Positions 9,571-62,932 are shown, counted from the stretch's first letter. The stretch: 64,000 bases of DNA from Minisyncoccia bacterium (GCA_038244685.1 JBBRTD010000001.1:166392-230391); one strand, 5' to 3'. A program made the numbers and translations. The notes: generated by a model from the letters alone, not told the origin.

Positions 9571-9576
9571 CATATT

Positions 9577-47524: not shown

Positions 47525-48124
47525 TTATCCGATTATTTCTACGAGCGTTCCGCGTCTTCCTGGAATCGCGCCCTTAATAAGTAATTGGTTATTTTCGACA
47601 TCAACACCAACAATTTCCAAATTTCTAACAGTAATACGATCGCTACCTGTACGGCCGCCCATGCGCATTCCCTTTGGAACTTTGTTACGAAGACCTCCAC
47701 CAATAGAACCTGGTTCACGTTCGGAATGTTTCTGTCCGTGACTTCTTGGTCCTCCATGGAAACCATGACGTTTAACAACGCCCTGGAAACCTTTTCCTTT
47801 TGATATACCAGTAACTGTAATTATATCCCCTTTTGCAAAGGCTGATACCGTTATCTTGTCACCAACTACCATCTCTTCTATATCTCGAAATTCTCGAAGA
47901 TGCTTATAAGCTCCTTCTTTGACATGTCCAAGATGCGCCTTTGTTGCGCGACTTTCTTTTTGTTCTTCAAAAGCTACCTGCACTGCAGTGTAACCATCTT
48001 TATCAGGGCTTTTCATTTGAGTGACGATAAGTGGGCCAGCTGAAATAACAGTAGTTGGCACTACACGTCCATCTTCTTCAAAGCACTGCATCATATGCTG
48101 TTTTTTACCAAGGATAAATTTCAT
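47525..48124 (-). CDS. rplC: 50S ribosomal protein L3
   Basis: MKFILGKK start, conserved core. Confidence 0.9.
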   Translation of the reverse strand: MKFILGKKQHMMQCFEEDGRVVPTTVISAGPLIVTQMKSPDKDGYTAVQVAFEEQKESRATKAHLGHVKEGAYKHLREFRDIEEMVVGDKITVSAFAKGDIITVTGISKGKGFQGVVKRHGFHGGPRSHGQKHSEREPGSIGGGLRNKVPKGMRMGGRTGSDRITVRNLEIVGVDVENNQLLIKGAIPGRRGTLVEIIG

Positions 48125-48138
48125 ATAATTAATATCTA

Positions 48139-48507
48139 TTACATCATCTTCACATCGATATCAACACCGGACGGTAGTGACAAACTTGTGAGCGCTTCAA
48201 TAGTTTTTGGATTAGGATTTAGGATATCGATAACGCGTTTATGAATTCTGATTTCAAACTGTTCACGAGCATTTTTGAATACAAACGATGCTCTGTTTAC
48301 AGTGTATTTTTTAATTTCGGTAGGAAGTGGAATTGGTCCAACAATCTTAGCATCATAACGAAGAGCAGTATCAATAATTTGCTTGACGGATGCGTCAAGA
48401 ATCTTATTCTCGTAAGCTCTTACTCGAATGCGAAGTTGTACAACCGCATCTTCTTTCCCTTTTTTTGGTTTTATTCCACCTATTGGTGGAGTGATCTTTG
48501 TTGTCAT
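48139..48507 (-). CDS. rpsJ: 30S ribosomal protein S10
   Basis: RIRVRAYENKILD...GPIPLPT signature. Confidence 0.9.
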   Translation of the reverse strand: MTTKITPPIGGIKPKKGKEDAVVQLRIRVRAYENKILDASVKQIIDTALRYDAKIVGPIPLPTEIKKYTVNRASFVFKNAREQFEIRIHKRVIDILNPNPKTIEALTSLSLPSGVDIDVKMM

Positions 48508-48538
48508 ACGTTTGTAATTAAAAAGAACGGAGTAATAC

Positions 48539-49738
48539 TTATTTGATGATCTTTGTTACAACACCAGCACCAACTGTTTTACCACCCTCACGGATAGCAA
48601 AGTGCATAGCTTCTTCAAGAGCAACTGGAGTTACAAGCTTAACTGTAAGTTTAACTGTATCACCTGGCATAACCATTTCTACTCCTGCTGGTAATGTTGA
48701 TTCACCTGTAACGTCAGTTGTACGGATGTAAAACTGAGGTTTGTAACCTGTGAAGAATGGTGTGTGACGACCTCCTTCTTCCTTTTTCAATACGTAAATT
48801 TCACACTCGAATTCTGCATGAGGAGTAACAGTTCCTGGTTTAACTAAAACTTGACCACGTGTTACATCTTCTTTTTTGATTCCACGGATAAGGATACCAG
48901 CATTGTCGCCAGCCATACCTTCTTTTAAGTTCTTGTTGAACATTTCAATACCAGTAACAGTTGTCTTTGCTGTATCTTTAATACCAACAATTTCAACATC
49001 TTCACCAACTTTGATAACTCCACGTTCAATTTTACCAGTAACAACTGTTCCACGTCCTTCAATTGAGAATATATCTTCAATAGGCATAAGGAATGGCTTT
49101 GTAATATCACGTTCTGGAACTGGAATATAAGTATCAAGGGCAGTTACTAATTCTAGTATTTTCTTTGCCCAATCATCATTATTGTCTGCTGATTCAAGAG
49201 CCTTCAAAGCTGAACCACGGATAACTGGAGCATTTGCGCCATCAAATCCTTGTTTTGTAAGAAGTTCACGAACTTCTTCTTCAACTAATTCAAGCATATC
49301 TGGATCATCAACCATGTCGCATTTGTTTAAGAATACAACAATTTTAGGAACGTTAACTTGCTTAGCAAGTAAGATATGTTCACGTGTCTGAGGCATAACT
49401 CCGTCTGTAGCAGCAACAACGATAACTGCACCGTCCATTTGAGCGGCACCTGTAATCATATTCTTAATATAGTCGGCGTGACCTGGAGCATCTATGTGAG
49501 CATAGTGACGTGTAGGTGTCCAATATTCATTATGTGACAATGCAATAGTAATACCACGAGCCTTTTCTTCAGGAGCTGAGTCGATTTGATCAACACCCTT
49601 AATTTTAGCACCGTATTCACCACCTTGTCTTGCCAATACCTGCAAAATAGCCGCGGTTAATGTAGTTTTCCCGTGATCGACGTGACCAATAGTACCTACG
49701 TTAACGTGAGGCTTATCTCTTTTAAATTCTTCTGCCAT
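48539..49738 (-). CDS. tuf: Elongation factor Tu (start at [11 protein letters not shown])
   Basis: [21 protein letters not shown] GTPase motifs, domains 2 and 3. Confidence 0.95.
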
Positions 49739-49925
49739 ATGTTTTATTGGTTGATATATATAACAGAGCATACGAGAACCTTACTCTATTCTAGCTACCA
49801 ACATAAATTAATAATAAATAATTCACCTCGTCATAGACGAAGTAGACGCAAATTGCGATTGACTTTCATACTATCAAATTTGACGGGAATGTCAACCTAA
49901 GTATAAATTCCAATATATATTTAAA

Positions 49926-49960
49926 TAAAATACCCCAAAACTATGTTTTGGGGTATTTTA
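49926..49960. terminator. Terminator AAATACCCCAAAAC-TATG-TTTTGGGGTATTTT 3' of the giant surface-protein gene
   Basis: 14-bp stem with T-run. Confidence 0.6.
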
Positions 49961-49970
49961 CAATTAATAT

Positions 49971-52900
49971 TTATATTTCTTTTATTACAGGCTTAAGTTT
50001 GCCCACCGTCACCGTAACACTCTTTGAATCATTTCCTCCTGGTCCATTACAGGTCAAAGTATAAATGGTGGTCTTTAGTGGTTTAAAGGTTTTATTATTA
50101 TTACCAATAGGAGTTACACCAACAATGCTGACCGATGGACTAGGAACAGAAACCATGGAACAAGTTGTGGCTCCGGTTGAAGTCCAAGCTACGTTAACGG
50201 CTTCGCCAAATTCAATTTTGTTAGTATTAACTGAGAATGACGATATAGATGCTGGTACTGGTGGATTTGTAACCGTTACAGTAAATAGTGATGACCAAGC
50301 AGAATTTGCTCCTTTAATATCTTGAGTTAGAGCCTTAAGTGAATATACTCCGGGTGTTGGCCATGAATTTGCTGGAACCATTGATGTACCAGAAGCAACA
50401 AAACCAGTCCAAACATCAGCAACTCCATCGTTATTCCAATCAACACCATAGCGAACTTGGTCGAGGTCTGGATCAGTTCCTGTGACTATGAAGTTTTGAA
50501 GTACATCTTTGTAGAAAGTTGCATTTCCAGAAATAGTAGGAGCTAATGGTGCATTATTATCTGAAATACACGTTGCTCCGCCCCAATGGGTTCCGGCTGT
50601 ACAAGAAGCAGTTGCTGTAGCTGTAGAAAGCAAAGTTCCATTATTATATAGGAAGAAATTTCTAGTACCATTTGAAACAGCATAAGAAGTTCCAGCACTT
50701 GAATTGGCATTAGCTACAACAATACTTGTAGGAGTTGTTACTTGAGAAGTTCCTATTGGATATGTTGTACTCCAAATTAAATTCGTATTACATGAACTTG
50801 CCCCGAGTGCTATAGAACAGTTCGTTGCAGTTATTGGTCCACTTGCAGGAGGATTACAAGTAAAATCTGGTAAGGTTTTAATATTACTCCAGGCTCCATT
50901 ACTTGCTCTAGTATGAACATAAAGACCGCTGTATGTCTGACCGGGAGTAATCGCTACACTTGTTGTTGTACCACTTGCAACATCCACATAGAAAGGAGCA
51001 GTTGGTCTTACGTAGCCACCAGTATAAGGAGCTGGAACAGCCCAGTTAAGAGTCACAAGATTTCCAGCAGCATTACATGAACTTGTAAATGAAGTTGGTG
51101 GTGGTGGAATAGTAACTGTTACAGCATCAGAGGCTGACTGACCAGTTGCATTTGTACATGCGAGTGTATATGTTTGAGAAAGCGCACTTGCAGCACCGGC
51201 TTGTGATCCTCCTGATACAGAGACAGCAGAACCATTGATTGTACAACTTGTAGCGTTAGCAACTGCAGCCCAAGAAAGAGTAACAGGAGAACCAACATAA
51301 GTTTCAACTGAACCATCGGCATTATTTGATCCCCAGGCTGTGACTTTTAAGTCAGGAGTTGGAACAGCGGCATTGTTAACGTTAAAAGAAACTGATGTCC
51401 AACTATTCGCTGATGGAACCCAGTCAGAATTGTAACAATATGCTGACATGGTATGAGATCCTACAGAAGTTAAAGCTGGAGTATTATATGTTCCTGAATT
51501 ATAAACACTTGAATAATCCCACCCCCCACCAGAAGTCCAATTCCAATCTAATAATAAGTGACTGTAATATCCATTACTACAAGAATATGAAATAGTTGCT
51601 GGTGATCCGTAGGGAACATTTGGTGTAACAGACAGAGAAGTTATATTTGAAGCACAAGCTGGAACATTGTATGTCTGAGTGCTTGGTCCTGAACAAGCAG
51701 CTCCACCATAAGCAGGTGTTGGGCTATTACATGAGCGAGTTTGAGTTTTCGTCTGAGCGCTATAGGCACAAGTATTATCTTGGGCGCTCCATCCAGACCA
51801 TCCTCCATTTATAGGACAAGGAGCATTTGTATATGCTTGAGTGCTTGAACCAGAACAAGCAGCTCCACCACCTGAAGGTGCTGGACTATCACAAGAACGA
51901 GTTTGAGTTCCGGAATATCCACAGGCAGGATTTTGTGCACTCCAACCTGACCAACCTCCGTTTATAATAGGTGGACTAACAGTGAAAGTTCCTATTCTAC
52001 TCCAACTATTAGCAGAAGGAACCCAGTCAGAATTGTAACAATATGCCATTATATAATGAGTACCAGGAGTTGTAAGAGACCCAGTTGTAGAAGGAGATCG
52101 TGAGCCATAGTATCCACTATCATTTACTGGAGACCACACATCATCCATTATAAGATGACTATAATATCCATTTGTACAAGCATAATAAATATTTGCACTT
52201 CCTCCATATGGAATTACATTCGGAGAAACATAAAGAGATGTAATATTCGAGGCACATGCTGGAACTGTATATGTTTGAGTGCTTGGTCCTGAACAACCAG
52301 CTCCACCATAAGCAGGTGTTGGGCTATTACATGAACGAGTTTGAGTTTTCGTCTGAGCGCTATAGGCACAAGTATTATCTTGGGCACTCCATCCAGACCA
52401 ACCTCCATCAACAGGAGCATTAATAACACTATAATCACATGCAACCCATGGACTACTTACTCCACCTGCATTCATACATGAAACTTTTGCTTGGTGAGAT
52501 CCAACAGAGGCTCCGATTGCTCCTCTGGTTAAAGAAAGTGTCCCACTAGTATTATAATTTGACCAATAAGTATATTCATCAACTTTAAGTGAACACCAAC
52601 TTGCATTCGAAGAACCTACGGTAATATTGACAATATTACCAGAAGAATCTACTCCAGGATTTGGTGAAACAGAACATGAGGAAACGGGGGGTGGTGTAAT
52701 ATAAAAAGGAAGATCCCAATAATTATCACCATATAAACTTATATTTAAACTTACATTGTGATTACCAGGTGTTGCAACATTAAACGAAGTTGCTCCTGAA
52801 GGATAATAAGAAACATCTGTATAGCCGATAACCCATTGATATGTTGGATTTGTGTCAGTATTAGCTAATACATACATCGTTCCACCATAACTGGTATAGT

Positions 52901-53096
52901 CTACTGAAGTGGAAACTGTGACCGTATTTCCTGAAACATTTACGGCTGCAGTAAAGTACGTGTAATCTTCACCATTAGGATGAACGAGAGGCAGAAAAAA
53001 ACTATCTGCATCAACCTTATTAATTGGAATTAATGACAGTCCAAACAGAAAAACAAATATTATGAATAAATTATTAATTACTTTTTTCATTTTCAT
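49971..53096 (-). CDS. Giant secreted surface protein (1041 aa) with three thrombospondin type-1-like repeats, Ig-like repeat modules and a conserved C-terminal region shared with the paralog at 54560-57826
   Basis: Signal peptide MKMKKVINNLFIIFVFLFGLSLIP. TSR-like modules GGWSGWSAQ..C...TQTRSC.SP.P..GGA.CSG.STQ....PAC occur 3 times. Repeated beta-sandwich-like modules (ITSL.V.PNV...YSHL..D..W). C-terminal DPDLDQVRYGVDWNNDGVADVW Ca-binding-like loop. Confidence 0.8.
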   Translation of the reverse strand: MKMKKVINNLFIIFVFLFGLSLIPINKVDADSFFLPLVHPNGEDYTYFTAAVNVSGNTVTVSTSVDYTSYGGTMYVLANTDTNPTYQWVIGYTDVSYYPSGATSFNVATPGNHNVSLNISLYGDNYWDLPFYITPPPVSSCSVSPNPGVDSSGNIVNITVGSSNASWCSLKVDEYTYWSNYNTSGTLSLTRGAIGASVGSHQAKVSCMNAGGVSSPWVACDYSVINAPVDGGWSGWSAQDNTCAYSAQTKTQTRSCNSPTPAYGGAGCSGPSTQTYTVPACASNITSLYVSPNVIPYGGSANIYYACTNGYYSHLIMDDVWSPVNDSGYYGSRSPSTTGSLTTPGTHYIMAYCYNSDWVPSANSWSRIGTFTVSPPIINGGWSGWSAQNPACGYSGTQTRSCDSPAPSGGGAACSGSSTQAYTNAPCPINGGWSGWSAQDNTCAYSAQTKTQTRSCNSPTPAYGGAACSGPSTQTYNVPACASNITSLSVTPNVPYGSPATISYSCSNGYYSHLLLDWNWTSGGGWDYSSVYNSGTYNTPALTSVGSHTMSAYCYNSDWVPSANSWTSVSFNVNNAAVPTPDLKVTAWGSNNADGSVETYVGSPVTLSWAAVANATSCTINGSAVSVSGGSQAGAASALSQTYTLACTNATGQSASDAVTVTIPPPPTSFTSSCNAAGNLVTLNWAVPAPYTGGYVRPTAPFYVDVASGTTTSVAITPGQTYSGLYVHTRASNGAWSNIKTLPDFTCNPPASGPITATNCSIALGASSCNTNLIWSTTYPIGTSQVTTPTSIVVANANSSAGTSYAVSNGTRNFFLYNNGTLLSTATATASCTAGTHWGGATCISDNNAPLAPTISGNATFYKDVLQNFIVTGTDPDLDQVRYGVDWNNDGVADVWTGFVASGTSMVPANSWPTPGVYSLKALTQDIKGANSAWSSLFTVTVTNPPVPASISSFSVNTNKIEFGEAVNVAWTSTGATTCSMVSVPSPSVSIVGVTPIGNNNKTFKPLKTTIYTLTCNGPGGNDSKSVTVTVGKLKPVIKEI

Positions 53097-54408
53097 TCTT
53101 TTTTAGATTTCTAAAATATACAGCAACTCCTGCGACGACAAGAATTCCAATTGCCAAAATTATTAGGCTCTTATTTGCATTAGATTTTTTTTCTTCTGCC
53201 GAAAGAGGAGAAATGGGTAGTAAATTTATTCCAAAATTTTTTTGATCTAAGATATTTCCTTTATCATCTAATAAAGTGATGGAGGTACTGGGATTAAGAC
53301 ATTCTGTTTTTACAACAGCAGATAAATCTGTGATGGGATTTTTTATATTATTAATTAGAGGAATATTTATTGGATTAATGCATTCTTGCCCTTTATCATT
53401 TAACATTGTAGCTTTAATATTTAAATTTAAGGGTGTATTTTCTATTTTTGATTTATTACTACTTGAATTATAAAGCAAAGATAAGATAGCTGTGTCTCCT
53501 TTTTGATAATTATCTTTATTTAAAGTTAGATTTACAATTGAAGCACGAGTACCATTTAAAACATATGAGACATCAATCTTATTTGAAGAAACATCACCTT
53601 CAACCAGACTAACCTTCATATTATAAACCTGAGGGGTATTACCAATCGGAAGATTAATCGAAAATATTTTCTTTTCTTTTGATTTAAAAATTATTATTTC
53701 ATTGTTAATAATATTTTGTGGAACTATTGCCCCGTAAGATGAACCATTAAAAGTTTCAATTAAGGGTAAAACCGATAGATTTTTATCTATTTGATTAGTT
53801 GCTTCACAAAGGAGCTTTAGTGTTTCCCCTTTATTAATAGTAACTTTTTGTGAAATATTGTGATGAGGACTATCTTTTTCTTCTAATACCTGTGTGAAAC
53901 AAGTTGGTTCTGAAATAAGCAAACCCGCTTCTGAGGCCTTCAGGGTAACCTTACCTAATGAAACCTTAGCAAAAGGAAATCCATTTTCATTTTTAGCATT
54001 TATAAATAAATTATATTCACCCGAAAGTATTTTAGGGTAAGTGTAACTAATTTCTTTATTTAAAGTTTTATTTTCAAGAAGAACTAGAGATTCTTCGTAA
54101 ATTTTTTCATCAATAAGGTATGGAGTTTTTGAATCAGTGTCATACAGCTCAACTCCATATTTAATTCCAGTTTGAATTCCTGTACGATTTGATAAGATAA
54201 AAGAAATATTTATTATATTATCTTTTTGGGAAACTATTTTAGCATCTATTATATTTACGGTTGCTAAAACTACAGCTTTATTTATCGTATTATTAATAGC
54301 GGGTGGAACATTTGGCAGTTTTTGTGTTTCGTCTGCAAGGATAGGGGTTGCTAAAATAAAAGAAAGAAAAATAAACAAACTCACCGTTGGAATTTTTAAT
54401 AAATACAT
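53074..54408 (-). CDS. Signal-peptide protein with C-terminal TM anchor (444 aa), translationally coupled to the downstream giant gene
   Basis: N-terminal signal, beta-rich body, C-terminal LIILAIGILVVAGVAVYF then basic tail. 23-nt overlap with the start of 49971-53096. Confidence 0.6.
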   Translation of the reverse strand: MYLLKIPTVSLFIFLSFILATPILADETQKLPNVPPAINNTINKAVVLATVNIIDAKIVSQKDNIINISFILSNRTGIQTGIKYGVELYDTDSKTPYLIDEKIYEESLVLLENKTLNKEISYTYPKILSGEYNLFINAKNENGFPFAKVSLGKVTLKASEAGLLISEPTCFTQVLEEKDSPHHNISQKVTINKGETLKLLCEATNQIDKNLSVLPLIETFNGSSYGAIVPQNIINNEIIIFKSKEKKIFSINLPIGNTPQVYNMKVSLVEGDVSSNKIDVSYVLNGTRASIVNLTLNKDNYQKGDTAILSLLYNSSSNKSKIENTPLNLNIKATMLNDKGQECINPINIPLINNIKNPITDLSAVVKTECLNPSTSITLLDDKGNILDQKNFGINLLPISPLSAEEKKSNANKSLIILAIGILVVAGVAVYFRNLKKNENEKSN

Positions 54409-54508
54409 TTTATAAATTCTATTTTAAATAATAAATAATTGCCATAAGTATAACATTAGATATAGATATCAATGTCTAGTTTATTTGTTTAAATGTTTTG
54501 TAATATAG

Positions 54509-54543
54509 AAACACCCTAGGAACCTTTGTTCCTAGGGTGTTTA
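54509..54543. terminator. Terminator AACACCCTAGGAAC-CTTTG-TTCCTAGGGTGTT
   Basis: 14-bp stem 3' of the giant paralog. Confidence 0.55.
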
Positions 54544-54559
54544 AAACTATTTTATTTTA

Positions 54560-57500
54560 TTAAATTTCTTTAATTGTCGGTTTAATTTTCCCCACCGTCA
54601 CAGTAACACTCTTTGAATCATTTCCTCCTGGTCCATTACAGGTCAAAGTATAAATGGTGGTCTTTAATGGTTTAAAAGTTTTATTATTATTACCAATAGG
54701 AGTTACGCCAACAATACTGACGGATGGACTAGGAACAGAAACCATAGAACAGGTTGTGGCTCCGGTTGAAGTCCAAGCTAGGTTAACGGCTTCGCCGAAT
54801 TCAATTTTATTTTTATCTATAGTAAAGGATGTAATTGAGGCTGGTACTGGTGGATTTGTAACAACAACCGTGAACAATGATGACCAAGCAGAATTGGCTC
54901 CTTTAATATCTTGAGTTAAAGCCTTTATGTTGTAAGTACCAATAGTCGGCCACGAATTTGTTGGAACCATTGATGTGCCAGAAGCAACAAAGCCAGTCCA
55001 AACATCTGCAACTCCATCGTTATTCCAATCAACACCATAGCGAACTTGGTCGAGGTCTGGATCAGTTCCTGTGACTATGAAGTTTTGAAGTACATCTTTG
55101 TAGAAAGTTGCATTTCCAGAAATAGTTGGTGCTAATGGTGCATTATTATCTGAGATACATGTTGCTCCACTCCAATGAGTTCCGGCTGTACAAGAAGCAG
55201 TCGCTGTAGCTGTAGAAAGCAAAGTCCCATTATTATATAAGAAGAAATTTCTAGCACCATTTGATATAGCATAAGAAGTTCCAGCACTTGAGTTAGCGTT
55301 AGCTACAACAATACTTGTGGGGGTTGTTACTTGAGAAGTTCCTATTGGATATGAAGTACTCCAAATTAAATTCGTATTACATGAACTCCCGTTTAGAGGA
55401 ATTGTACAATTTGTAGCTGTAAGTGGTCCTGAAGCAGGGGGATTACATGTAATGTCTGCTATTGGTAAGGTATTACTCCAGGCTCCATTTGAACTTCTGG
55501 TGTGTAAATAAACTCCACTATAAGTTTGACCGGGAGTAACAGTAACATTAGTACTAAAACCACTTACAATGTCTTGATGAAAAGGTAATGTACCCCAGGG
55601 CGTACTTCTTAAATAGGCACCTGTATATCCAGGCTGAAGAGTCCAATTAAGTGTAGCTAAATTCCCAGCGGCATTACATGATCTTGTAAATGAAGTTGGT
55701 GGTGGTGGAACAGTAACGGTTACAGCATCAGAAGCAGATTGACCGGTTGCATTTGTACATGAAAGTGTATGAGATTTTGTTATTAAACTTGCCGTTCTTG
55801 TTTGAGACCCTCCTGAAACAGCAACAGCTGATCCATCGAGAGTACAACTTGTAGCGTTAGGAACTGCTGCCCAAGAAAGAGTATAAATATCACCTATATA
55901 AGTTTCTAATGGTCCATTAGAATTTGAACCTGACCACGCAGTAACTCTTAAATCAGGAACTGGGGCAGCGGCATTACTAACACTGAATGATACAGAATAC
56001 CAACTATTTGCAGATGGCACCATATCTGTATTGTAACAATATGCTGACATTGTATGAGATCCTACAGAAGTTAAAGCTGGAGTATTATATGTTCCTGAAT
56101 TGTAAACACCTGAATAATCCCATCCCCCACCTGAAGTCCAATTCCAATCTAATAATAAGTGACTGTAATAACCACTACTGCAAGAATATGAGATTGTTGC
56201 AGGTGTTCCATATGGGACAACATTATTTGTTATTGATAATGAGGTTATATTTGAACGTAAAGCAAAGTTAGCTGTACAGGTTTTTGATGAATCCATTGTT
56301 ACCTGTCCACTTGCATTACAACTTCCAGTCCATCCTGAAAATGTTGAATTGGCACTTGGAGAGGCAGTTGCTGTTACAAAAGTTCCTGGAGCATAACTTC
56401 CACTACCCCCCACAGAGCCAGAACCGGTCCCTGCTGTATTTACGGTAAGATTATAATTTACACAGTTAATAGCAACATTGGCTTGAATACTCCATGCTCC
56501 ATTTGAAGGATTTCTTGTGTGAACCCAGGCACTATAACCAGTATTTGGGGAAATTGAGAAGCCATCTGAAGTTCCAACAGAACCATCATTATAAAGAACA
56601 GTCGCTCCGTCTGAATTTCTAGAAGCTCTTGTATAAAAAGTATTATAACCAGCAGGTGCAGCCCAATTTATGGTTGCATACGTCGCACTAGCATTACAAG
56701 AATAACTTAGACTTGTAGGCATCGGTGGAGTAGTGATAGTAACTGAATCAGAAGCTGACTGACCTGTTGCATTTGTACATGAAAGAGTATGAGATTCCGA
56801 ACGAGCATTTGCAGTCCCAGCTTGTGAACCACCTGAAACAGAAACAGCGGAACCATCTAGAGTACAACTTGTAGCATTTGGTACGGCGTTCCAGTATAGA
56901 GTAAATGGAGAGCCTGTATAAGTTTCTATTGAACCATCGGCATGATCATAACCCCAAGCTGTGACTTTTAAGTCAGGAGTTGGTGTTGGAGCATTACTAA
57001 CAGTAAAAGATCCTATTCTAGTCCAACTATTAGCTGAAGGTACCCAATCTGAGTTATAACAATATGCCATGGCATAGTGAGATCCAGGAACTGTAAGTGC
57101 CCCTGTCGTCGTTGGAGATCTTGAACCATAATAGTTTGAATCTTGCCAAGCCCAAGTATCATCTAAAATAATATGACTATAATATCCATTCGTACAAGCA
57201 TAATATATATTAGCAGAACCTCCATACGGGACAACATTCGGTGAAACATACAAAGAAGTTATATTTGAAGCACAAGCTGGAACATTATATGTCTGAGTGC
57301 TTGGTCCTGAACAATCTGCTCCGCCATAAGCTGGTGTTGGATTATTACATGAACGAGTTTGAGTTTTAGTTTGAGCACTATATGCACAAGTATAATCTTG
57401 AGCACTCCAACCAGACCAACCTCCATTTACATTTACACCAAAATTTACGGTATACCAACCGGTCCAAACCCAATCATTGTTATAACAAGTTACAGAAGCA

Positions 57501-57826
57501 GTATGACCTCCAGGAGCCAAAACCGGTGTTGTCCATGAGCCAGAACTAGAATAAATAACACCTAAGGCATCTCCTCCCCAATCAAGATAAACATCACAGA
57601 AATCTGTACCACTATTCGCTGTATATGATATTGTTCCAGTTCCTCCGACAGGAATATTACCTGGAGTGACAGTTACAGAAATAATAGCAGGAAGCGGTCT
57701 GACTGTAACAGTAGTACTTCCTCCCCCAGTATCAGCATTTGCAAATGTAGGCCCTAATATAGACAAAACGAGAATGAATAAAAATATTTTTATTGTTTTC
57801 ATAATTTTAGATAAGATACGACTCAT
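54560..57826 (-). CDS. Giant secreted surface protein paralog (1088 aa) with one TSR-like repeat, Ig-like modules and the same C-terminal region as 49971-53096
   Basis: Signal peptide. NGGWSGWSAQDYTCAYSAQTKTQTRSCNNPTPAYGGADCSGPSTQTYNVPAC. C-terminal roughly 330 aa nearly identical to the paralog at protein and DNA level. Confidence 0.8.
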   Translation of the reverse strand: MSRILSKIMKTIKIFLFILVLSILGPTFANADTGGGSTTVTVRPLPAIISVTVTPGNIPVGGTGTISYTANSGTDFCDVYLDWGGDALGVIYSSSGSWTTPVLAPGGHTASVTCYNNDWVWTGWYTVNFGVNVNGGWSGWSAQDYTCAYSAQTKTQTRSCNNPTPAYGGADCSGPSTQTYNVPACASNITSLYVSPNVVPYGGSANIYYACTNGYYSHIILDDTWAWQDSNYYGSRSPTTTGALTVPGSHYAMAYCYNSDWVPSANSWTRIGSFTVSNAPTPTPDLKVTAWGYDHADGSIETYTGSPFTLYWNAVPNATSCTLDGSAVSVSGGSQAGTANARSESHTLSCTNATGQSASDSVTITTPPMPTSLSYSCNASATYATINWAAPAGYNTFYTRASRNSDGATVLYNDGSVGTSDGFSISPNTGYSAWVHTRNPSNGAWSIQANVAINCVNYNLTVNTAGTGSGSVGGSGSYAPGTFVTATASPSANSTFSGWTGSCNASGQVTMDSSKTCTANFALRSNITSLSITNNVVPYGTPATISYSCSSGYYSHLLLDWNWTSGGGWDYSGVYNSGTYNTPALTSVGSHTMSAYCYNTDMVPSANSWYSVSFSVSNAAAPVPDLRVTAWSGSNSNGPLETYIGDIYTLSWAAVPNATSCTLDGSAVAVSGGSQTRTASLITKSHTLSCTNATGQSASDAVTVTVPPPPTSFTRSCNAAGNLATLNWTLQPGYTGAYLRSTPWGTLPFHQDIVSGFSTNVTVTPGQTYSGVYLHTRSSNGAWSNTLPIADITCNPPASGPLTATNCTIPLNGSSCNTNLIWSTSYPIGTSQVTTPTSIVVANANSSAGTSYAISNGARNFFLYNNGTLLSTATATASCTAGTHWSGATCISDNNAPLAPTISGNATFYKDVLQNFIVTGTDPDLDQVRYGVDWNNDGVADVWTGFVASGTSMVPTNSWPTIGTYNIKALTQDIKGANSAWSSLFTVVVTNPPVPASITSFTIDKNKIEFGEAVNLAWTSTGATTCSMVSVPSPSVSIVGVTPIGNNNKTFKPLKTTIYTLTCNGPGGNDSKSVTVTVGKIKPTIKEI

Positions 57827-57908
57827 TAGATTTCTATTTGATTCTAATTTAGAAACAATAAATTTAAGTTTCTAACTCTAGAGTAAACCATTAATATAAA
57901 ACTACATA

Positions 57909-58412
57909 TTAATGTATAGGACGACACATATAACCACCAGTTCTGGAAGTCATAATATTGGAAAGGCCGAATGAAGTAGGAGAAGAATCAACAACTCTAT
58001 AGTCATAAGCACCATTATCAAGAGCACCTGCTAAAACTTCACCAGTACCATAGGTACCACTAACGAAAGGCCCTGTTTCAAACACATTACTACTGGTACA
58101 ATGCTGTAATTTATAATAATAGTAAGTTGGTGATGAGGCCCCTGAACAAGTAACAGAAAAAGTAGTAGTTGCGTATAAATTACTTACATAAAAAGACCCA
58201 GTTGGGCCACTACCTCCTCTTCCCCCTGCTTCAAAACAAGTAGAAGCACCTGAAGATGTCCAACTTATTTGAGTACCTCCCCCATAAGAAACAGCAGAAG
58301 GGTATGCAGTTACAGTAACGGCAACAGCGGCGCTACAAATATTTGCTGATATAAAAGCTATCCCAAAAACAAATAAAATTTTAACTAAAGATTTATTAAA
58401 TATTTTTTTCAT
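57909..58412 (-). CDS. Secreted protein (167 aa) carrying the YYKLQHC...SRTGG.C C-terminal domain
   Basis: Signal peptide. Shares ...YYYKLQHCT..NVF(E/Q)TGPF.SGTY.TGEVLAGALDNG.YDYRVVDSS with the C-terminus of 62933-64000. Confidence 0.6.
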   Translation of the reverse strand: MKKIFNKSLVKILFVFGIAFISANICSAAVAVTVTAYPSAVSYGGGTQISWTSSGASTCFEAGGRGGSGPTGSFYVSNLYATTTFSVTCSGASSPTYYYYKLQHCTSSNVFETGPFVSGTYGTGEVLAGALDNGAYDYRVVDSSPTSFGLSNIMTSRTGGYMCRPIH

Positions 58413-58539
58413 GTTATTTTAATAAGATATTATGATATTGCCTTAAATTATATCATATATAGATAAATATTTACAATTAAACAAAAAAAAGACCACTCAA
58501 ATTATATAAAATAATTGAGTGGCTTTTTTATTTAGTCTA

Positions 58540-59250
58540 CTATTTGACCTTCTTGTATACGTCTTTAAAGTTATCCTTAAAGATTCTAAAGGATTCCGAA
58601 GATATATTTTCAACCTTCCAAGCCCCACCCCAATTTAATGTTGGTGGTTTTGTTGTTTCATCGACAGACCAAGGTCCATCGCCTTTAAAACTTCCAACCA
58701 TTACATCAAACCTACCATTCGGAAGAAAAGTAACAACATCTGCCTCTGCTCGTGGAATAGAATAATATTTCCAAACCAGAGTTGGATCTTCGGGGGTTTT
58801 TGGTTCGTAAATATAAACCGAATCCTTAACCCATGAACCTTGAAGAAAGATCCAGGATAATGTTTTTTCAAAAGTTACTTTTACCTCATAATTTGTGGAG
58901 GCGTTAGTAGATATAACATAATTTTTACTTGTCATTGGAGTAGCAACCCCATTAACAGTTATAGTTTTTTGGGTGTAGCCAGGATCGGCTTCCGTCAAAA
59001 TTTCAACTACTGCACCACTTACCGCTTCATTTGGGCAAATGATTTTACCACCTATTCCGTTAACAACGGAAGCGGTAATCGTGAATTTCTGTGCAGGAGG
59101 ATCAAGAGGTCCTTCTTTACAAGAAACAATAAACATAAGTCCTACAACTAGCAGGACAACAAGAAAAAATAGTTTTTTCATATCCTTTATTTTTAGTGTA
59201 AATTTTCCTAATTTCATATATAGTATAGTACTTTTTAAGCATTTTGTCAA
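58540..59250 (-). CDS. Lipoprotein (236 aa)
   Basis: Lipobox LVVGLMFIVSC. Confidence 0.55.
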   Translation of the reverse strand: MTKCLKSTILYMKLGKFTLKIKDMKKLFFLVVLLVVGLMFIVSCKEGPLDPPAQKFTITASVVNGIGGKIICPNEAVSGAVVEILTEADPGYTQKTITVNGVATPMTSKNYVISTNASTNYEVKVTFEKTLSWIFLQGSWVKDSVYIYEPKTPEDPTLVWKYYSIPRAEADVVTFLPNGRFDVMVGSFKGDGPWSVDETTKPPTLNWGGAWKVENISSESFRIFKDNFKDVYKKVK

Positions 59251-59451
59251 GTTTCAATGCTCTTATATCGTATGCCTAATCTAAAGACTTTTTTGCTAAA
59301 TAAAATTAAATCAAAAAATAATAATTTCATATTTCATTTATATAAGTGTATAATAATATATTATTAATTAAATAGATATGCTTTGTTTCAATCAATAAAA
59401 TCGTTATAAATGAATTAATAGATTCGAAGCTTAGCAATTCTGTAAAATCGT

Positions 59452-60129
59452 ATGCAAAGAAATAAAATAATTTTAGCCTTGGCCATAGGAACAATATTTT
59501 CACCTGTAATAACAATACAAGCAGTGGAAAAAACAAACACAATAAAAGCAACTACAACAACGCAATCTCAAAATATTACAAAAATTCCTACAATCGATAA
59601 AGCAAAGATTGAAGAAATGAGAGCAAAACTAATGATTGAGACTAAAACCATAAAAGGTAATCTTGATATTCAAAAAGCTGAAATTGAAAAATTATTAGCA
59701 GAAAAAAAAGGTGAGACCAAAACAAAGCTTGTAGCAAAATCTCAAGAAAAAGTTCGAACTATTTTAGATAATATTTTTAATAAATTTAATGCTCAATTAG
59801 GAAAACTTTCAGGAGTTGACGCTAAGGTATCAATAAAAATCAATACTTTAGAAAAAACTGGGGTAAATGTAAGCGAGGCAAAGACACAATATACTATAGC
59901 TAAAGCCTCATTAGACAAGACAACAGCAGAAGTTCTAGCCATAAGAATGGTTTTAATGGAACAAATTACAGTAGATACATCAAGAGGAACATTTAGAGAT
60001 CTTGTAAAGAAAGCAGAAGAAAGTATGAAGGCTACAGGAAAAGAATATAACAAAATTATACCTCTTATCGTTAGTAGAAATAATAATGTCGAAGCAAAAG
60101 TTAATACAAATATTATAAATCAACAATAA
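59452..60129 (+). CDS. Secreted coiled-coil protein (225 aa)
   Basis: Signal peptide MQRNKIILALAIGTIFSPVITIQA, heptad-rich K/E composition. Confidence 0.55.
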   Translation: MQRNKIILALAIGTIFSPVITIQAVEKTNTIKATTTTQSQNITKIPTIDKAKIEEMRAKLMIETKTIKGNLDIQKAEIEKLLAEKKGETKTKLVAKSQEKVRTILDNIFNKFNAQLGKLSGVDAKVSIKINTLEKTGVNVSEAKTQYTIAKASLDKTTAEVLAIRMVLMEQITVDTSRGTFRDLVKKAEESMKATGKEYNKIIPLIVSRNNNVEAKVNTNIINQQ

Positions 60130-60135
60130 TCACAT

Positions 60136-60402
60136 ATGGAACCAACAACACCAACAGTAGCAGTAGCAAATAATAAATCAAAAATGGCTATCATTGTAAT
60201 TATAGTATTAATCATAATCGCTGGAGCGATAGCTGTAATATCACGTAGAGGAAAAACAGAAGTAAATCCTGCAAATAATGGGGAGGTTCAAAATGGTACA
60301 GTCTCCGAGTCGGATGATTCTCAAATCTTAACACAAGAGATTACTGCAGCCACAACATTTGATAATGAAAAAGATTTAAGTGAAATAGATAGCGCCTTCT
60401 AA
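60136..60402 (+). CDS. Small single-pass membrane protein (88 aa)
   Basis: TM IIVIIVLIIIAGAIAVI, acidic C-terminus. Confidence 0.45.
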   Translation: MEPTTPTVAVANNKSKMAIIVIIVLIIIAGAIAVISRRGKTEVNPANNGEVQNGTVSESDDSQILTQEITAATTFDNEKDLSEIDSAF

Positions 60403-60415
60403 TAATAGAATAAAT

Positions 60416-60445
60416 AAAAACCCTCGGAATATTCCGAGGGTTTTT
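60416..60445. terminator. Bidirectional terminator AAAAACCCTCGGAAT-ATTCCGAGGGTTTTT
   Basis: Perfect palindrome between convergent genes. Confidence 0.6.
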
Positions 60446-60455
60446 ATTTATTCTA

Positions 60456-61928
60456 TTATTGTTCTATATAAGTTGTATTCATCTTATCTACTGGAATCGT
60501 TACAGAGTCTGAGATAGAAGCTCCGTAGAATCCTAGACATGAAATAGTATATTTTGTATCTCTCTTTAGGGCTGGAGTTACATAAGGACTATTTTCATTT
60601 CCTCCACAACTGCCGCTTACTCCTGCTTTATCAGAATATTCACAAGAACAAGAATCAACATTTTCGGAAGTCCAAATTACTTTTGCTTTTCCGTTATAAG
60701 TAATTTTTTGACCAGTAGGAAGTGGTTTGTCTTTCCAAGTAAATGAAACATTCAAAGCTGGACATAGATTATTTGTATAGTCTCTACTTGTTGCCATACC
60801 ATCAGCATCAGGCGCACAAGGAGCACCTCCATTTAAAGGTTCAATACAAGATCTTGTTTGAGTACCACTACCTGGACAAGTACTTGATCGAGATGTCCAT
60901 GCCGTCCAAGCACCATCTACTTTTGGACCTGCAGGTGGAGTAGCAATACAAACTGAACCATTCCAAGTACAATTATTTAACTGTGCATCAACATATTTAC
61001 TTGCTAATTCTTTTCCAGTGTTATAAAGGAATAATGTCGTTGATTCACCATAAGATAGAGTTAAAGATTTATTTCCAACATCCCCTGTGGCGAGAGTCTT
61101 ACCACCAGTACTTTCGGTTACAGCAGAAGCTCCAACTGTTTCTGGATTAGTAACCTTCCAAGAATAAGGAACAGCACATGAACTTTCGCCAATACTTATA
61201 AGACAACTAGTTGCATCCAAATTACCAGACATCGGACCGGCAGGATATTTACAATTATCACTTACATAAGTTGAATTTGAATTAGTAACCGGTGTTTCAA
61301 AAATACATCCAGGAAAATCACTTTTTGTTTGCTTTCTTATTACTGAACCAGAGATAGCAGCATCACCATTCCCGTTTAAGTCACAAGCAACAGTAACGTT
61401 CTTAGTTAGAGGAGCAGGGCAAACTGTTCCGCAGGCTTTGGTATCATTATCTGCTGCGGGACAAGCAATTCCACCATTTGATGCTGGAGTAGTTATATTG
61501 TAAGTTTCAGTTCCGTTTACACAAGAACTCCAACTACCAACACAATTTGTTCCACAGGTACGAGTCGCATTATCGGCAAAAGAACATACCGCCCCGCCTC
61601 CTGATGCAGGCGAAGTAATATTATAAGTCTGAGTTCCGTTTGAACATGAACTCCAACTACCAACACAGCTTGTTCCACAATTTTGAGTTGCTCCATTAAC
61701 TGCCGAGCAGACAGCGCCACCGTTTTCGGCTGGAGTGGTAATGTTGTAAGTTTGAGAACCATTAATACAAGTGCTGTAACTTCCCGAACAATCAACAACC
61801 CCAGCTCCTGCTCCTACGACTTGGACAGTTGCGGTTCCAGAAATAGAAGCCGCATTGGCAGAAATAAATCCTAATATAAAAAATGAGAAAACGAATAAAA
61901 TAATTTTTGAAATTTTCATTGCGTTCAT
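60456..61928 (-). CDS. Secreted Cys-rich protein (490 aa) with three short TSR-like modules and one fuller TSR-like module
   Basis: Signal peptide. Three repeated modules C(G/I)(T/N)(S/G)...W(S)SC.NGT.TYNIT.PA..GG..C. C-terminal DGAWTAWTSRSSTCPGSGTQTRSCIEPLNGGAPC. Confidence 0.7.
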   Translation of the reverse strand: MNAMKISKIILFVFSFFILGFISANAASISGTATVQVVGAGAGVVDCSGSYSTCINGSQTYNITTPAENGGAVCSAVNGATQNCGTSCVGSWSSCSNGTQTYNITSPASGGGAVCSFADNATRTCGTNCVGSWSSCVNGTETYNITTPASNGGIACPAADNDTKACGTVCPAPLTKNVTVACDLNGNGDAAISGSVIRKQTKSDFPGCIFETPVTNSNSTYVSDNCKYPAGPMSGNLDATSCLISIGESSCAVPYSWKVTNPETVGASAVTESTGGKTLATGDVGNKSLTLSYGESTTLFLYNTGKELASKYVDAQLNNCTWNGSVCIATPPAGPKVDGAWTAWTSRSSTCPGSGTQTRSCIEPLNGGAPCAPDADGMATSRDYTNNLCPALNVSFTWKDKPLPTGQKITYNGKAKVIWTSENVDSCSCEYSDKAGVSGSCGGNENSPYVTPALKRDTKYTISCLGFYGASISDSVTIPVDKMNTTYIEQ

Positions 61929-62074
61929 AAAATTGCTTGATAATTGATAAATAATAAATAGAAACTATTGTTTTTATTATACCAATAAATGAATAGCATT
62001 AGCAAATAAATTTATGTCTATTTAATGACAATCTAAGTGTTATTAAATAATTATAAAAGTACCCCAATATACAA

Positions 62075-62106
62075 AAAACCCTTTTCTTGAAAAAGAAAAG
62101 GGTTTT
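62075..62106. terminator. Terminator AAAACCCTTTTCTT-GAAA-AAGAAAAGGGTTTT
   Basis: 14-bp perfect stem. Confidence 0.55.
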
Positions 62107-62125
62107 CGTATATTTATACATACAC

Positions 62126-62782
62126 CTATATTGGTGTGTAGGTTTCCTCGAATAAGTTTGTATTAGTAGCCACAGATGATATCAATACTAAATGATTAGC
62201 ATCAACGGTAACTAATTCCCAAGTAGAACTTCCTATTTTTATAATCTTATTAGACCAGGTCCATTTATATGAAGCAGTATATACTCCATCTAAAAAGAAA
62301 TCTTGAGTCCAATCGTCTTTAAAAAAAAGTGATTCTTTGGCTCCATCAAAAGTCATGTCTCTGATGAATTCTCTTTTGGAATTTAACAAACGATATTTTC
62401 CATTACCCCACTTAAAGTGAGTAAGAATCCCGAATTGGGAAGTAGTCCAGTTGCCCACGTGAGTGGTAACTGTTTTATTAGCACTAACACTTCCGTTAAT
62501 AGCGTTAATCGTAACCGTTGTCTCCCTTATTAAAGTTGGAAGGGCAACATTGATTACATCTGCTTTTTCGTTGTTGATTAAAAGTGAAGTAAAGTCCTTC
62601 ACAGTTCCTACAATATTAATAGTGTCCCCAAATACTACTGTTGTATCTGAAAAATTAGTTAATATTGTTGGAGTTTTAGCTACAACAACTGGAGGATTTA
62701 TTGGCTCAAGACCCCCCGATCCTGTCGAACAACTAATTAATAAGCTGCTCAAAATAACAACCATCAAAATTCTGCTCATCAT
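62126..62782 (-). CDS. Lipoprotein (218 aa)
   Basis: Lipobox SSLLISCSTG. Confidence 0.55.
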   Translation of the reverse strand: MMSRILMVVILSSLLISCSTGSGGLEPINPPVVVAKTPTILTNFSDTTVVFGDTINIVGTVKDFTSLLINNEKADVINVALPTLIRETTVTINAINGSVSANKTVTTHVGNWTTSQFGILTHFKWGNGKYRLLNSKREFIRDMTFDGAKESLFFKDDWTQDFFLDGVYTASYKWTWSNKIIKIGSSTWELVTVDANHLVLISSVATNTNLFEETYTPI

Positions 62783-62862
62783 ATGTTAAGGTATTTGTTT
62801 CTTCCTTTAAATAATGATATATAAATGGGAATTAGTCAAATTTTAACAGTGGATAACTTTTT

Positions 62863-62914
62863 AAGTATATACAAAATAAAACCCTATATTTAGGGTTTTA
62901 TTTTGTATATACTT
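62863..62914. terminator. 52-bp perfect palindrome AAGTATATACAAAATAAAACCCTA-TATT-TAGGGTTTTATTTTGTATATACTT
   Basis: Exact reverse-complement arms centred at about 62888. Confidence 0.55.
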
Positions 62915-62932
62915 AAATTTATTTAAGAGATA

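What the first reader, a model, noticed from the sequence alone, without database searches (positions are those of the whole stretch)
49977..55400. Near-identical DNA blocks of 0.8 kb or more shared by the two giant genes (recombination or variation cassette)
The 3' about 830 nt of the two genes (49977-50800 vs 54566-55400) are about 95 percent identical at the nucleotide level, e.g. ...CCACCGTCAC(C/A)GTAACACTCTTTGAATCATTTCCTCCTGGTCCATTACAGG.... Further internal blocks recur within and between the genes (about 51100-51330 vs 55700-55920; 51700-51960 vs 52260-52400 vs 57250-57420). Such long direct repeats 4.5 kb apart are substrates for gene conversion or deletion. They are typical of antigenic or adhesin variation loci, and also an assembly hazard.
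Basis: seen in the sequence. Interest (0 to 1): 0.5.

Follow-up and report, generated by a model that had tools for sequence, protein, structure and literature searches.

The report
Gene conversion between tandem adhesin-like genes
Two neighbouring genes for long, secreted, adhesin-like proteins in an uncultured ultra-small (Paceibacteria) bacterium keep their last ~0.85 kb about 90% identical by copying sequence from one another, a known way for surface-protein families to evolve and not a programmed switching system.

Summary
Positions 49977-50800 and 54566-55389 are 89.8% identical without gaps, not ~95%. The longest exact run is 119 nt. The other internal repeats are 72-92% identical.

The repeats lie in two complete tandem genes on the minus strand, A (1041 aa) and B (1088 aa). 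A 444-aa membrane-protein gene separates them, and tuf and the S10 operon follow directly. Both proteins are secreted strings of all-beta domains, including true thrombospondin type-1 repeats and Ig/FN3/PKD-like domains. The shared 3' block encodes the last three domains.

A related metagenome contig has the same B-M-A order, so the duplication is old. Even so, in two genomes the 3' blocks of the paralogs group by genome (bootstrap 100%). Their identity at four-fold synonymous sites is 76-78%, against 41-61% between genomes. Upstream modules instead group across genomes. This pattern is concerted evolution by ectopic gene conversion, as in Helicobacter pylori babA/babB.

I found no silent cassettes, inverted repeats or DGR signature. 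No recombinase or reverse transcriptase turned up among the ORFs scanned. The "variation cassette" reading is therefore only partly supported. The assembly-hazard remark holds: relatives' contigs break inside these genes. Interest is modest.

The parts
49971..53096 (-). Gene A, 1041 aa. Secreted modular protein: signal peptide, NA1, NA2, TSR, X, TSR, TSR, X, Y, Z, V, PKD, W.
   Evidence: ORF and translation. Module map by blastp. Identical to database protein P0005.
53074..54408 (-). Gene M, 444 aa. It has a signal peptide and a C-terminal transmembrane anchor, and matches no known family. Its stop overlaps the start of A by 23 nt, so the two are probably co-transcribed.
   Evidence: An ortholog of 443 aa sits at the same place in L002 (81.7% nt). 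L003 has a truncated 78-aa remnant.
54560..57826 (-). Gene B, 1088 aa. Secreted modular protein: signal peptide, NB, TSR, X, Y, Z, InlB-type B-repeat, X, Y, Z, V, PKD, W.
   Evidence: Identical to database protein P0001.
49971..50855 (-). 3' homogenised block of A. It encodes the V, PKD-like and W domains (aa 748-1041) plus the stop codon.
   Evidence: 88.1% nt, 92.2% aa and 75.8% four-fold-site identity to the B block. The AlphaFold2 model shows three beta-sandwich domains, the middle one PKD-like.
54560..55444 (-). 3' homogenised block of B (aa 795-1088 plus stop). It is the partner of 49971-50855 at an offset of 4589 nt.
50356..50802 (-). Best-conserved tract in A, 93.5% identical to 54945-55391. 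It contains the 119-nt exact run at 50419-50537.
49989..50227 (-). Second tract in A, 92.9% identical to 54578-54816. It contains the 64-nt exact run at 50014-50077.
51422..51599 (-). Separate high-identity tract inside the X domain of A, 92.1% identical to 56023-56200 in B at an offset of 4601 nt.
52254..52409 (-). TSP1 repeat 1 of A (aa 230-281).
   Evidence: Repeat family D5. Module map. TSP1 profile match.
51816..51962 (-). TSP1 repeat 2 of A (aa 379-427).
51654..51809 (-). TSP1 repeat 3 of A (aa 430-481).
57272..57427 (-). TSP1 repeat of B (aa 134-185). Its DNA is 92% identical to the reference unit in A (repeat 3, 51645-51747).
49926..49959 (-). Hairpin plus T-run directly after the stop codon of A. 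It looks like an intrinsic terminator and is not shared with B.
   Evidence: Sequence read. Palindrome found. The scanner did not list it.
54508..54542 (-). Hairpin plus T-run after the stop codon of B. Its sequence differs from the one after A.
   Evidence: Sequence read. Palindrome found.
49868..49895 (-). Promoter-like site for tuf (TTGACA, 16 nt, TAGTAT). It marks the point where identity to relative L003 jumps from ~64-74% to 97%.
60456..61928 (-). Distant paralog of 490 aa (B-repeat-like, V, TSR and W modules) in the same gene cluster. It shares no nucleotide-level repeat with A or B.

Best explanation
A and B are tandem paralogs that encode secreted, beads-on-a-string, adhesin-like proteins of a Paceibacteria (CPR) bacterium. 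They sit directly upstream of tuf.

**Shown**
- The near-identical DNA is the coding sequence of their last three beta-sandwich domains.
- It is kept alike within a genome by non-reciprocal homologous recombination (ectopic gene conversion) between the direct repeats.
- The modules upstream follow separate, shuffled histories.
- The shorter recurring blocks are copies of domain-coding units (TSP1 repeats and the X and Y domains) within and between the genes.

**Inferred**
- The recombination is RecA-type strand exchange seeded on exact runs of up to 119 nt.
- It happens occasionally over evolutionary time, not as a programmed switch.
- The conserved C-terminal module serves a role common to both proteins, such as export or attachment to the cell envelope. 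The variable N-terminal and central modules would then provide binding specificity, plausibly toward a host cell.
For: **The duplication is old**
- L002 carries a B-ortholog, an M-ortholog and an A-ortholog in the same order.
- Ortholog divergence is 75-88% nt, with 47-73% identity at four-fold sites.

**The 3' block is homogenised within genomes**
- Over the last 1002 nt, A-B is 85.7% identical. The L003 pair is 90.2%. All between-genome pairs are 64-79%.
- In the V-PKD-W region, four-fold-site identity is 75.8% for A-B and 77.6% for the L003 pair. It is 41-61% for all between-genome pairs.
- Sub-tracts reach 99% nt and 95% four-fold identity.

**The tree changes along the gene**
- NJ bootstrap for the 3' block gives [A,B] 100% and [P2,P8-like] 100%, also with third positions only.
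- In the X-Y region, B groups with P7 of L001 (98%) and A with P4 (94%).

**Other support**
- Runs test on polymorphic sites: the longest concordant A-B run is 59 sites, against a permutation maximum of 31 (p<0.0005).
- Similarity ends at the stop codons, and each gene has its own terminator hairpin.
- Protein nature: signal peptides; TSP1 profile vs thrombospondin-1, E=1e-17; tandem beta-sandwich models with pLDDT 84 and 82, with PKD, FN3-array and giant-adhesin fold matches.
- The same pattern is described for H. pylori babA/babB and homA/homB: 3' ends similar within a strain, 5' and middle parts similar between strains (PMC3960876).
Against: - The full A-ortholog of L002 is cut off by the contig end. 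The clean four-gene test (both paralogs in two genomes with matched orthology) rests on L003, whose downstream gene has a different N-terminus from A.
- Within the 3' block alone, the unevenness of synonymous differences is not clearly significant. My rough chi-square on the counts gives p of about 0.1. A single older copying event followed by divergence is therefore as compatible as repeated events.
- About 24% of four-fold sites differ between A and B, so the homogenisation is not recent.
- No reads are available, so there is no evidence of ongoing exchange.
- The functional roles (adhesion; export or anchoring for the C-terminal module) are inferred from folds and signal peptides only.
Confidence: 0.8

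Rival explanations
1. Independent, lineage-specific partial duplications. In each genome the 3' ~0.85 kb of one gene was copied once onto the other, or a whole gene was duplicated recently and its 5' part replaced. No recurrent conversion is involved.
For: The similarity could come from one event about 0.3 synonymous substitutions per site ago (from the four-fold-site identity). Heterogeneity inside the block is weak. Module shuffling is clearly common in the family: architectures range from 754 to 1879 aa.
Against: Copying a segment onto an existing paralog is itself a gene-conversion event, so this differs only in number of events. There are several separate high-identity tracts (3' block, X-domain tract 51422-51599, Y tail) with low-identity DNA between them. 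The same outcome arose in a second genome. The B-M-A arrangement predates the split from L002.
Confidence: 0.12
2. Programmed antigenic or adhesin variation. One gene acts as an expression site and the other as a donor cassette, with frequent switching by gene conversion, as in pilE/pilS, vlsE or msp2.
For: The genes are tandem surface-protein paralogs that share flanking-type homology. Recombination between them is shown. Alleles of the locus are very divergent beside a nearly identical tuf region in L003.
Against: Both genes are complete, with a start codon, signal peptide and terminator. There are no truncated or silent copies in 64 kb and no inverted repeats. The exchanged part is the conserved end, not the variable part. 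The copies differ at 10% of sites and the longest exact run is 119 nt, unlike the near-identity between donor and expression site in active systems.
Confidence: 0.04
3. Purifying selection alone on an ancient duplication. The C-terminal domains are so constrained that the paralogs stay alike without any exchange.
For: There are few amino-acid changes in the block (92% aa identity) and stretches with no non-synonymous change.
Against: Synonymous four-fold sites are also homogenised: 76% within genomes against 41-61% between genomes. The same block is only 57-79% identical in amino acids between genomes, so it is not under unusually strong constraint. The tree of third positions still groups the genes by genome at 100%.
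Confidence: 0.02
4. Assembly artefact. Two strain variants of one gene were placed in tandem, or a repeat was mis-joined.
For: The sequence comes from a metagenome-type assembly. Relatives' contigs often break in these genes.
Against: The B-M-A order, with different N-termini and an intervening gene, is seen independently in L002. The copies differ at 10% of sites and have different flanks and terminators.
Confidence: 0.02

Closest known systems
Helicobacter pylori babA/babB and homA/homB outer-membrane adhesin paralogs (Pride & Blaser 2002, as summarised in PMC3960876)
   Same: Paralogous adhesin-type genes whose 3' segments are more alike within a genome than between genomes (concerted evolution by gene conversion). 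Their 5' and middle segments keep between-genome relationships. This is the pattern measured here.
   Different: The bab and hom genes lie at dispersed loci, encode beta-barrel outer-membrane proteins of a Gram-negative pathogen, and also show phase variation and chimera formation during infection. Here the genes are tandem, encode multi-domain Ig/FN3/TSP1 proteins in a CPR bacterium, and no ongoing switching is shown.
Tandem emm-like genes (mrp-emm-enn) of Streptococcus pyogenes, and Leptospira ligA/ligB (from my own knowledge, not checked here)
   Same: Adjacent or paralogous surface-protein genes that share one long, nearly identical block encoding a common structural or anchoring part, plus a variable part. 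Recombination between the paralogs yields chimeras.
   Different: Those proteins have defined anchors (LPXTG or a lipobox). A and B end in ...KPxIKEI, with no transmembrane segment and no LPXTG. In lig genes the shared block is at the 5' end.
Silent-cassette antigenic variation systems (Neisseria pilE/pilS, Borrelia vlsE, Anaplasma msp2; from my own knowledge)
   Same: Gene conversion between related sequences that encode surface proteins.
   Different: Those systems have one expressed gene and several promoterless partial cassettes, and they diversify the variable region at high frequency. Here there are two complete genes, no partial cassettes, and the conserved region is the one homogenised.
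Eukaryotic thrombospondin type-1 repeats (thrombospondin-1, UNC5, properdin, ADAMTS)
   Same: The ~50-aa WSxWS...QTRxC...GG..C repeats match solved TSRs at E=1e-17 with a family profile. Relative P0009 has the canonical six-cysteine form.
   Different: The host is bacterial. The repeats in A and B score just below Pfam's own threshold (20.0 vs 21.6 bits) and lack one cysteine pair. Whether they bind ligands as animal TSRs do is unknown.

Membership tests
Concerted evolution by ectopic gene conversion between paralogous surface-protein genes (bab/hom type) | In one segment, paralogs within a genome are more alike than orthologs between genomes. | tested here: met
   For the last 1002 nt, within-genome pairs are 85.7% and 90.2% identical and between-genome pairs 64-79%. 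Bootstrap is 100% for both within-genome pairs.
Concerted evolution by ectopic gene conversion between paralogous surface-protein genes (bab/hom type) | Other segments of the same genes keep between-genome relationships, so the phylogeny changes along the gene. | tested here: met
   In the X-Y region, B groups with P7 of L001 (98%) and A with P4 of L004 (94%). The N-termini of A and B match the L002 orthologs at 87-89% nt.
Concerted evolution by ectopic gene conversion between paralogous surface-protein genes (bab/hom type) | Homogenisation includes synonymous sites, so it is not explained by protein constraint. | tested here: met
   Four-fold-site identity is 75.8% and 77.6% within genomes and 41-61% between genomes.
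Concerted evolution by ectopic gene conversion between paralogous surface-protein genes (bab/hom type) | Dependence on the homologous recombination machinery (RecA). | not testable with these tools
   No genetics is possible. Among the recombination genes, only a RecG-like helicase fragment is seen in the window.
Silent-cassette antigenic variation locus (pilE/pilS, vlsE, msp2 type) | One expression site plus promoterless or truncated donor cassettes. | tested here: not met
   Both genes are complete ORFs with signal peptides and their own terminators. There are no further nucleotide-level copies in the window.
Silent-cassette antigenic variation locus (pilE/pilS, vlsE, msp2 type) | Sequence variants of the locus coexist in one population. 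| not testable with these tools
   No reads or coverage are available.
Diversity-generating retroelement target (VR/TR pair) | Differences between the two repeats fall at adenines of the template. | tested here: not met
   The 132 mismatches are spread over all base pairs. The bases at mismatched positions in A are T43, A36, C30, G23.
Diversity-generating retroelement target (VR/TR pair) | A reverse transcriptase gene next to the repeats. | tested here: not met
   No RT domain in the neighbouring or large ORFs scanned. Not every small ORF was scanned.
Invertible or shufflon-type phase variation | Inverted repeats flanking the segment, plus a site-specific recombinase. | tested here: not met
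   No inverted repeats of 40 nt or more in 48000-60000. No recombinase among the ORFs scanned.
Thrombospondin type-1 repeat (Pfam PF00090) | Sequence match to the TSP1 family, including the W-x-x-W, Q-x-R-x-C and GG-x-x-C elements. | tested here: met
   A profile of 13 repeats hits thrombospondin-1, UNC5, properdin and ADAMTS13 structures at E from 1e-17 to 1e-8. Single repeats of A score 20.0 and 16.3 bits against Pfam's 21.6 cut-off, so by Pfam's own threshold alone the result is borderline.
Sortase-anchored (LPXTG) adhesins | C-terminal LPXTG motif, hydrophobic segment and charged tail. | tested here: not met
   The C-termini read ...VTVGKLKPVIKEI and ...VTVGKIKPTIKEI, with no hydrophobic segment.

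The most novel reading that the evidence does not exclude
The slot directly upstream of tuf in this Paceibacteria clade may be a hypervariable adhesin island. It would exist as deeply divergent haplotypes that are swapped between otherwise nearly identical genomes. Each haplotype would be homogenised internally by gene conversion, and the island might set host specificity for an episymbiotic lifestyle.

The evidence so far:
- The slot holds one or two genes of 754-1879 aa with different module sets.
- Identity between the window and L003 steps from 64-74% to 97% exactly at the tuf promoter.
- The proteins carry true TSP1 repeats.
- Their C-termini share an unannotated end motif (hydrophobic residue, K or Q, E, then one more residue) that could be an unrecognised sorting tag.
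Probability: 0.2. Interest if true: 0.6.

Novelty: new member of a known kind. Interest (0 to 1): 0.35.

Why it matters
Concerted evolution of one end of paralogous adhesin genes is well known in pathogens. Finding it in an uncultured CPR/Paceibacteria genome suggests the same recombination dynamics shape the surface proteins of these ultra-small, probably host-attached bacteria. Cultivated relatives need multiple adhesins to grow on their hosts (PMC10633639).

In practice, the TSP1 and Ig-like repeat units explain why metagenome contigs of this clade break at this locus. Gene trees built from whole genes here would mislead. The unannotated protein family is a reasonable candidate for host-attachment studies. 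It combines true TSP1 repeats, a conserved three-domain C-terminus and a shared C-terminal end motif.

Tried and rejected
- **Exact-protein look-ups** for A, B, EF-Tu and S10 of the window found nothing. The source contig could not be retrieved and no strain-level relatives were obtained.
- **DNA pattern scan with the conserved tuf leader** returned only the L001 MAG from genome contigs and nothing from metagenome contigs.
- **Protein-pattern scan of metagenome contigs** gave just four close loci. Two of them have long flanks (L008, L010), and both carry a single large gene.
- **DGR hypothesis:** rejected on the mismatch spectrum.
- **Invertible element:** rejected, no inverted repeats.
- **Pfam and NCBIfam** gave no family for gene M, for the V, Z and W modules, or for the neighbouring small secreted proteins.
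- **Rfam** gave only sub-threshold chance hits on the terminator hairpin and the tuf leader.
- **Loss versus ancestral single copy in L001:** three flanking genes give an unresolved trichotomy, 56% vs 37% bootstrap.
- **Literature searches** for TSP1 repeats or gene conversion in Patescibacteria found nothing relevant.


Full report
**1. Observation**

The window carries three genes on the minus strand between 49971 and 57826:
- A: 49971-53096, 1041 aa
- M: 53074-54408, 444 aa
- B: 54560-57826, 1088 aa

The 3' ends of A and B align without gaps at an offset of 4589 nt. Identity over 49977-50800 vs 54566-55389 is 89.8%, not about 95%. Identity is uneven along the block:
- 49989-50227 is 92.9% identical.
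- 50356-50802 is 93.5% identical.
- A 76-84% patch lies between them.
- The longest exact runs are 119 and 64 nt.

Similarity ends at the stop codons and falls to 67-69% upstream of about 50800. The whole collinear match, 49971-51651 vs 54560-56255, is 82% identical. No further copy exists elsewhere in the window.

**2. Anatomy**

The window is ordinary bacterial chromosome of about 34% G+C. It carries tmRNA, a tRNA, FtsH, SecY and a P-type ATPase.

Directly downstream of A lie tuf (EF-Tu), S10, L3, L4, L23 and L2. The related locus L001 has the same order.

Each large gene is followed by its own hairpin and T-run, and the two hairpins differ in sequence. The stop codon of M overlaps the start of A by 23 nt. 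The likely transcription units are therefore B alone, M with A, and then tuf from its own promoter-like site at 49895-49868.

Upstream of B is a cluster of small secreted proteins and a 490-aa distant paralog.

**3. The proteins**

Both proteins start with a signal peptide and are built from about 50-100-aa modules:
- A: NA1, NA2, TSR, X, TSR, TSR, X, Y, Z, V, PKD, W
- B: NB, TSR, X, Y, Z, B-repeat (Pfam Flg_new_2, E=1e-9), X, Y, Z, V, PKD, W

The TSR units are true thrombospondin type-1 repeats. Single repeats fall just below Pfam's cut-off (20.0 vs 21.6 bits). A profile of 13 family repeats hits solved thrombospondin-1, UNC5, properdin and ADAMTS13 repeats at E from 1e-17 to 1e-8.

AlphaFold2 models gave two results:
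- V-PKD-W (pLDDT 84) forms three beta-sandwich domains. The middle one matches a PKD domain at TM 0.84.
- TSR-X-Y-Z (pLDDT 82) forms a tandem Ig/FN3-like array. Its best matches are FN3 arrays, the Aureispira grappling-hook protein and the giant adhesins SiiE and RTX.

There is no LPXTG motif and no C-terminal membrane segment. The proteins end in ...GK(I/L)KPxIKEI.

The near-identical 3' block is therefore the coding sequence of the last three domains: A 49971-50855 and B 54560-55444. The internal repeats are the TSR, X and Y coding units.

**4. Relatives**

A protein search named the lineage Paceibacteria/Paceibacterota (CPR) and found a small set of close relatives with different module sets, from 754 to 1879 aa. 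Their genomic contexts are:
- L002 has a B-ortholog (P0006), a 443-aa M-ortholog and an A-ortholog in the same order. The contig ends 268 codons into the A-ortholog, inside a TSP1 repeat.
- L003 reads large gene, 78-aa remnant of M, large gene P0002, tuf. Its first gene is identical over 691 aa to P0008 from another sample with the same layout.
- L001, L008 and L010 have a single large gene directly upstream of tuf.

The slot upstream of tuf is thus conserved, but its content varies. The B-M-A arrangement predates the split between the window organism and the L002 organism.

**5. Test for gene conversion**

Ortholog divergence between these genomes is 75-88% at the nucleotide level. Identity at four-fold degenerate sites is 47-73%. 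If A and B had simply diverged since the old duplication, their 3' ends should be no more alike than that. They are more alike:
- Over the last 1002 nt, A-B is 85.7% identical and the L003 pair 90.2%. Every between-genome pair is 64-79%.
- In the V-PKD-W region, four-fold-site identity is 75.8% (A-B) and 77.6% (L003 pair), against 41-61% for all between-genome pairs.
- Sub-tracts reach 99% nucleotide and 95% four-fold identity.
- Neighbour-joining trees of this region group A with B and the two L003 genes with each other, at 100% bootstrap. This holds with third positions only.
- In the X-Y region just upstream, B groups with the L001 gene (98%) and A with the L004 gene (94%).
- A runs test on polymorphic sites gives a longest concordant A-B run of 59 sites, against a permutation maximum of 31 (p<0.0005).

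Protein constraint cannot explain this. The same block is only 57-79% identical in amino acids between genomes. The result is the standard signature of partial concerted evolution by gene conversion, found in two independent genomes.

**6. What it is not**

- The mismatches between the copies are not adenine-specific, so this is not a DGR pair.
- There are no inverted repeats in 48-60 kb.
- None of the 24 window ORFs scanned against Pfam matched a recombinase or reverse transcriptase.
- No truncated or silent copies exist in the window.
- The tandem layout is not an assembly construct. It recurs in independent assemblies, with different flanks, N-termini and terminators.

About a quarter of four-fold sites differ between A and B, which corresponds to roughly 0.3 substitutions per synonymous site. 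Most of the homogenisation is therefore old. Only short tracts look recent. This fits occasional ectopic conversion and does not fit a high-frequency switch.

**7. Mechanism and function**

Two things are shown. Sequence has been exchanged between the two genes, and the exchange is limited to the 3' block and a few upstream tracts.

The rest is inferred:
- The exchange is RecA-type strand invasion between the direct repeats, seeded on exact runs of up to 119 nt, with non-reciprocal repair.
- The same repeats could also support deletion of M together with one gene. L001 has a single mosaic gene that is B-like in the X-Y region and A-like in part of the Z region. Flanking-gene trees cannot tell loss from an ancestral single copy.
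- The proteins are extended surface or secreted binding proteins. The shared C-terminal module would serve a role common to both, such as export or attachment to the envelope. The variable N-terminal modules would give binding specificity.

Cultivated Patescibacteria need several adhesins for growth on their hosts (PMC10633639). That makes host attachment a reasonable but untested role.

**8. Comparison with known systems**

The closest described case is H. pylori babA/babB and homA/homB. Their 3' segments show strong similarity within a strain, while the 5' and middle parts show similarity between strains. This is interpreted as concerted evolution (PMC3960876, citing Pride & Blaser 2002).

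The features that define that pattern were tested here and met. The features that define silent-cassette systems, DGRs and invertible elements were tested and not met (see the membership table). The finding is therefore a new example of a known process in a lineage where I found no report of it.

**9. Beyond the finding**

- The window and L003 are 97.0% identical over 331 nt from the tuf -35 box onward. They are only 73.7% identical in the last 300 nt of the adjacent large gene and 63.5% in the spacer between. If L003 is not a chimeric contig, the locus exists as old, divergent haplotypes next to nearly identical housekeeping DNA, as at other surface-structure loci under diversifying selection. 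This rests on one short contig.
- Many family members, including the 490-aa paralog in the window, end in a hydrophobic residue, then K or Q, then E, then one more residue. No Pfam or NCBIfam model covers this end.
- The V, PKD-like and W domain types are common as repeats in large proteins. The profile has 13,292 representatives at E<=1e-3 and 565 at E<=1e-30.

**10. Verdict**

Recombination between the genes and the assembly hazard hold, while a programmed variation cassette does not. Novelty: a new member of a known kind. Interest is modest at 0.35. The hypervariable-island reading is the most interesting possibility still open.

Noticed in passing
window 49971-50000 and 54560-54590 (C-termini of A and B); 60456-60480 (C-terminus of the 490-aa paralog): Family members end in a shared motif at the very C-terminus: a hydrophobic residue, K or Q, E, then one more residue (IKEI, IKEF, IQEY, IKEE, FKEI, YKEF, YQEF, YIEQ). 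None has a membrane segment or LPXTG, and no Pfam or NCBIfam model covers it. It may be an unrecognised sorting or secretion tag.
   Followed up: partly
window 49565-49895 vs L003 6040-6375: Identity to relative L003 jumps from 64-74% (end of the large gene and the spacer) to 97.0% over 331 nt, exactly at the tuf promoter. This suggests divergent alleles of the adhesin-like locus beside nearly identical housekeeping DNA, or else a chimeric contig.
   Followed up: partly
window 49740-49868: The leader of about 130 nt between the tuf promoter and the start codon is conserved with L001 and L003 and contains two hairpins. One of them was picked up as terminator-like at 49844-49824. It matches no Rfam family.
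   Followed up: partly
window 51654-52409 and 57272-57427: True thrombospondin type-1 repeats occur in a CPR bacterium (profile E=1e-17 to human thrombospondin-1). Relative P0009 carries the canonical six-cysteine form. I found no literature on this for Patescibacteria.
   Followed up: partly
L002 15069 (contig end); L003 1 (contig start); L004 7221 (contig end): Relatives' metagenome contigs end inside the large genes. For L002 and L003 the break is inside a TSP1 repeat. The short, roughly 150-nt domain repeats may be what breaks assemblies, more than the 0.85-kb block.
   Followed up: partly
window 53074-54408: Gene M lies between the paralogs. It has a signal peptide, an Asn/Ile/Lys-rich body, a C-terminal membrane anchor and lower G+C than its neighbours, and matches no known family. 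It is intact in L002, reduced to 78 aa in L003 and absent in L001, L008 and L010.
   Followed up: partly
window 57909-63889: Upstream of B is a cluster of small secreted proteins with no known family (167, 236, 225, 88, 218 and 318 aa), plus the 490-aa paralog. The cluster is syntenic in L001 and L002. The 167-aa and 318-aa proteins share a ...RTGG(Y/S)xCR(P/T)I... C-terminus.
   Followed up: no
window 29877-32612: A 911-aa protein matches the nucleotide-binding region of TrwB-type type IV secretion coupling proteins and HerA. It may belong to the patescibacterial type IV secretion system.
   Followed up: no
window 6436-6510 and 9179-9571: A tRNA-Ile with anticodon TAT, and a tmRNA whose tag peptide is ANKVASVKSPYSFGFAGFAPAFA.
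   Followed up: no
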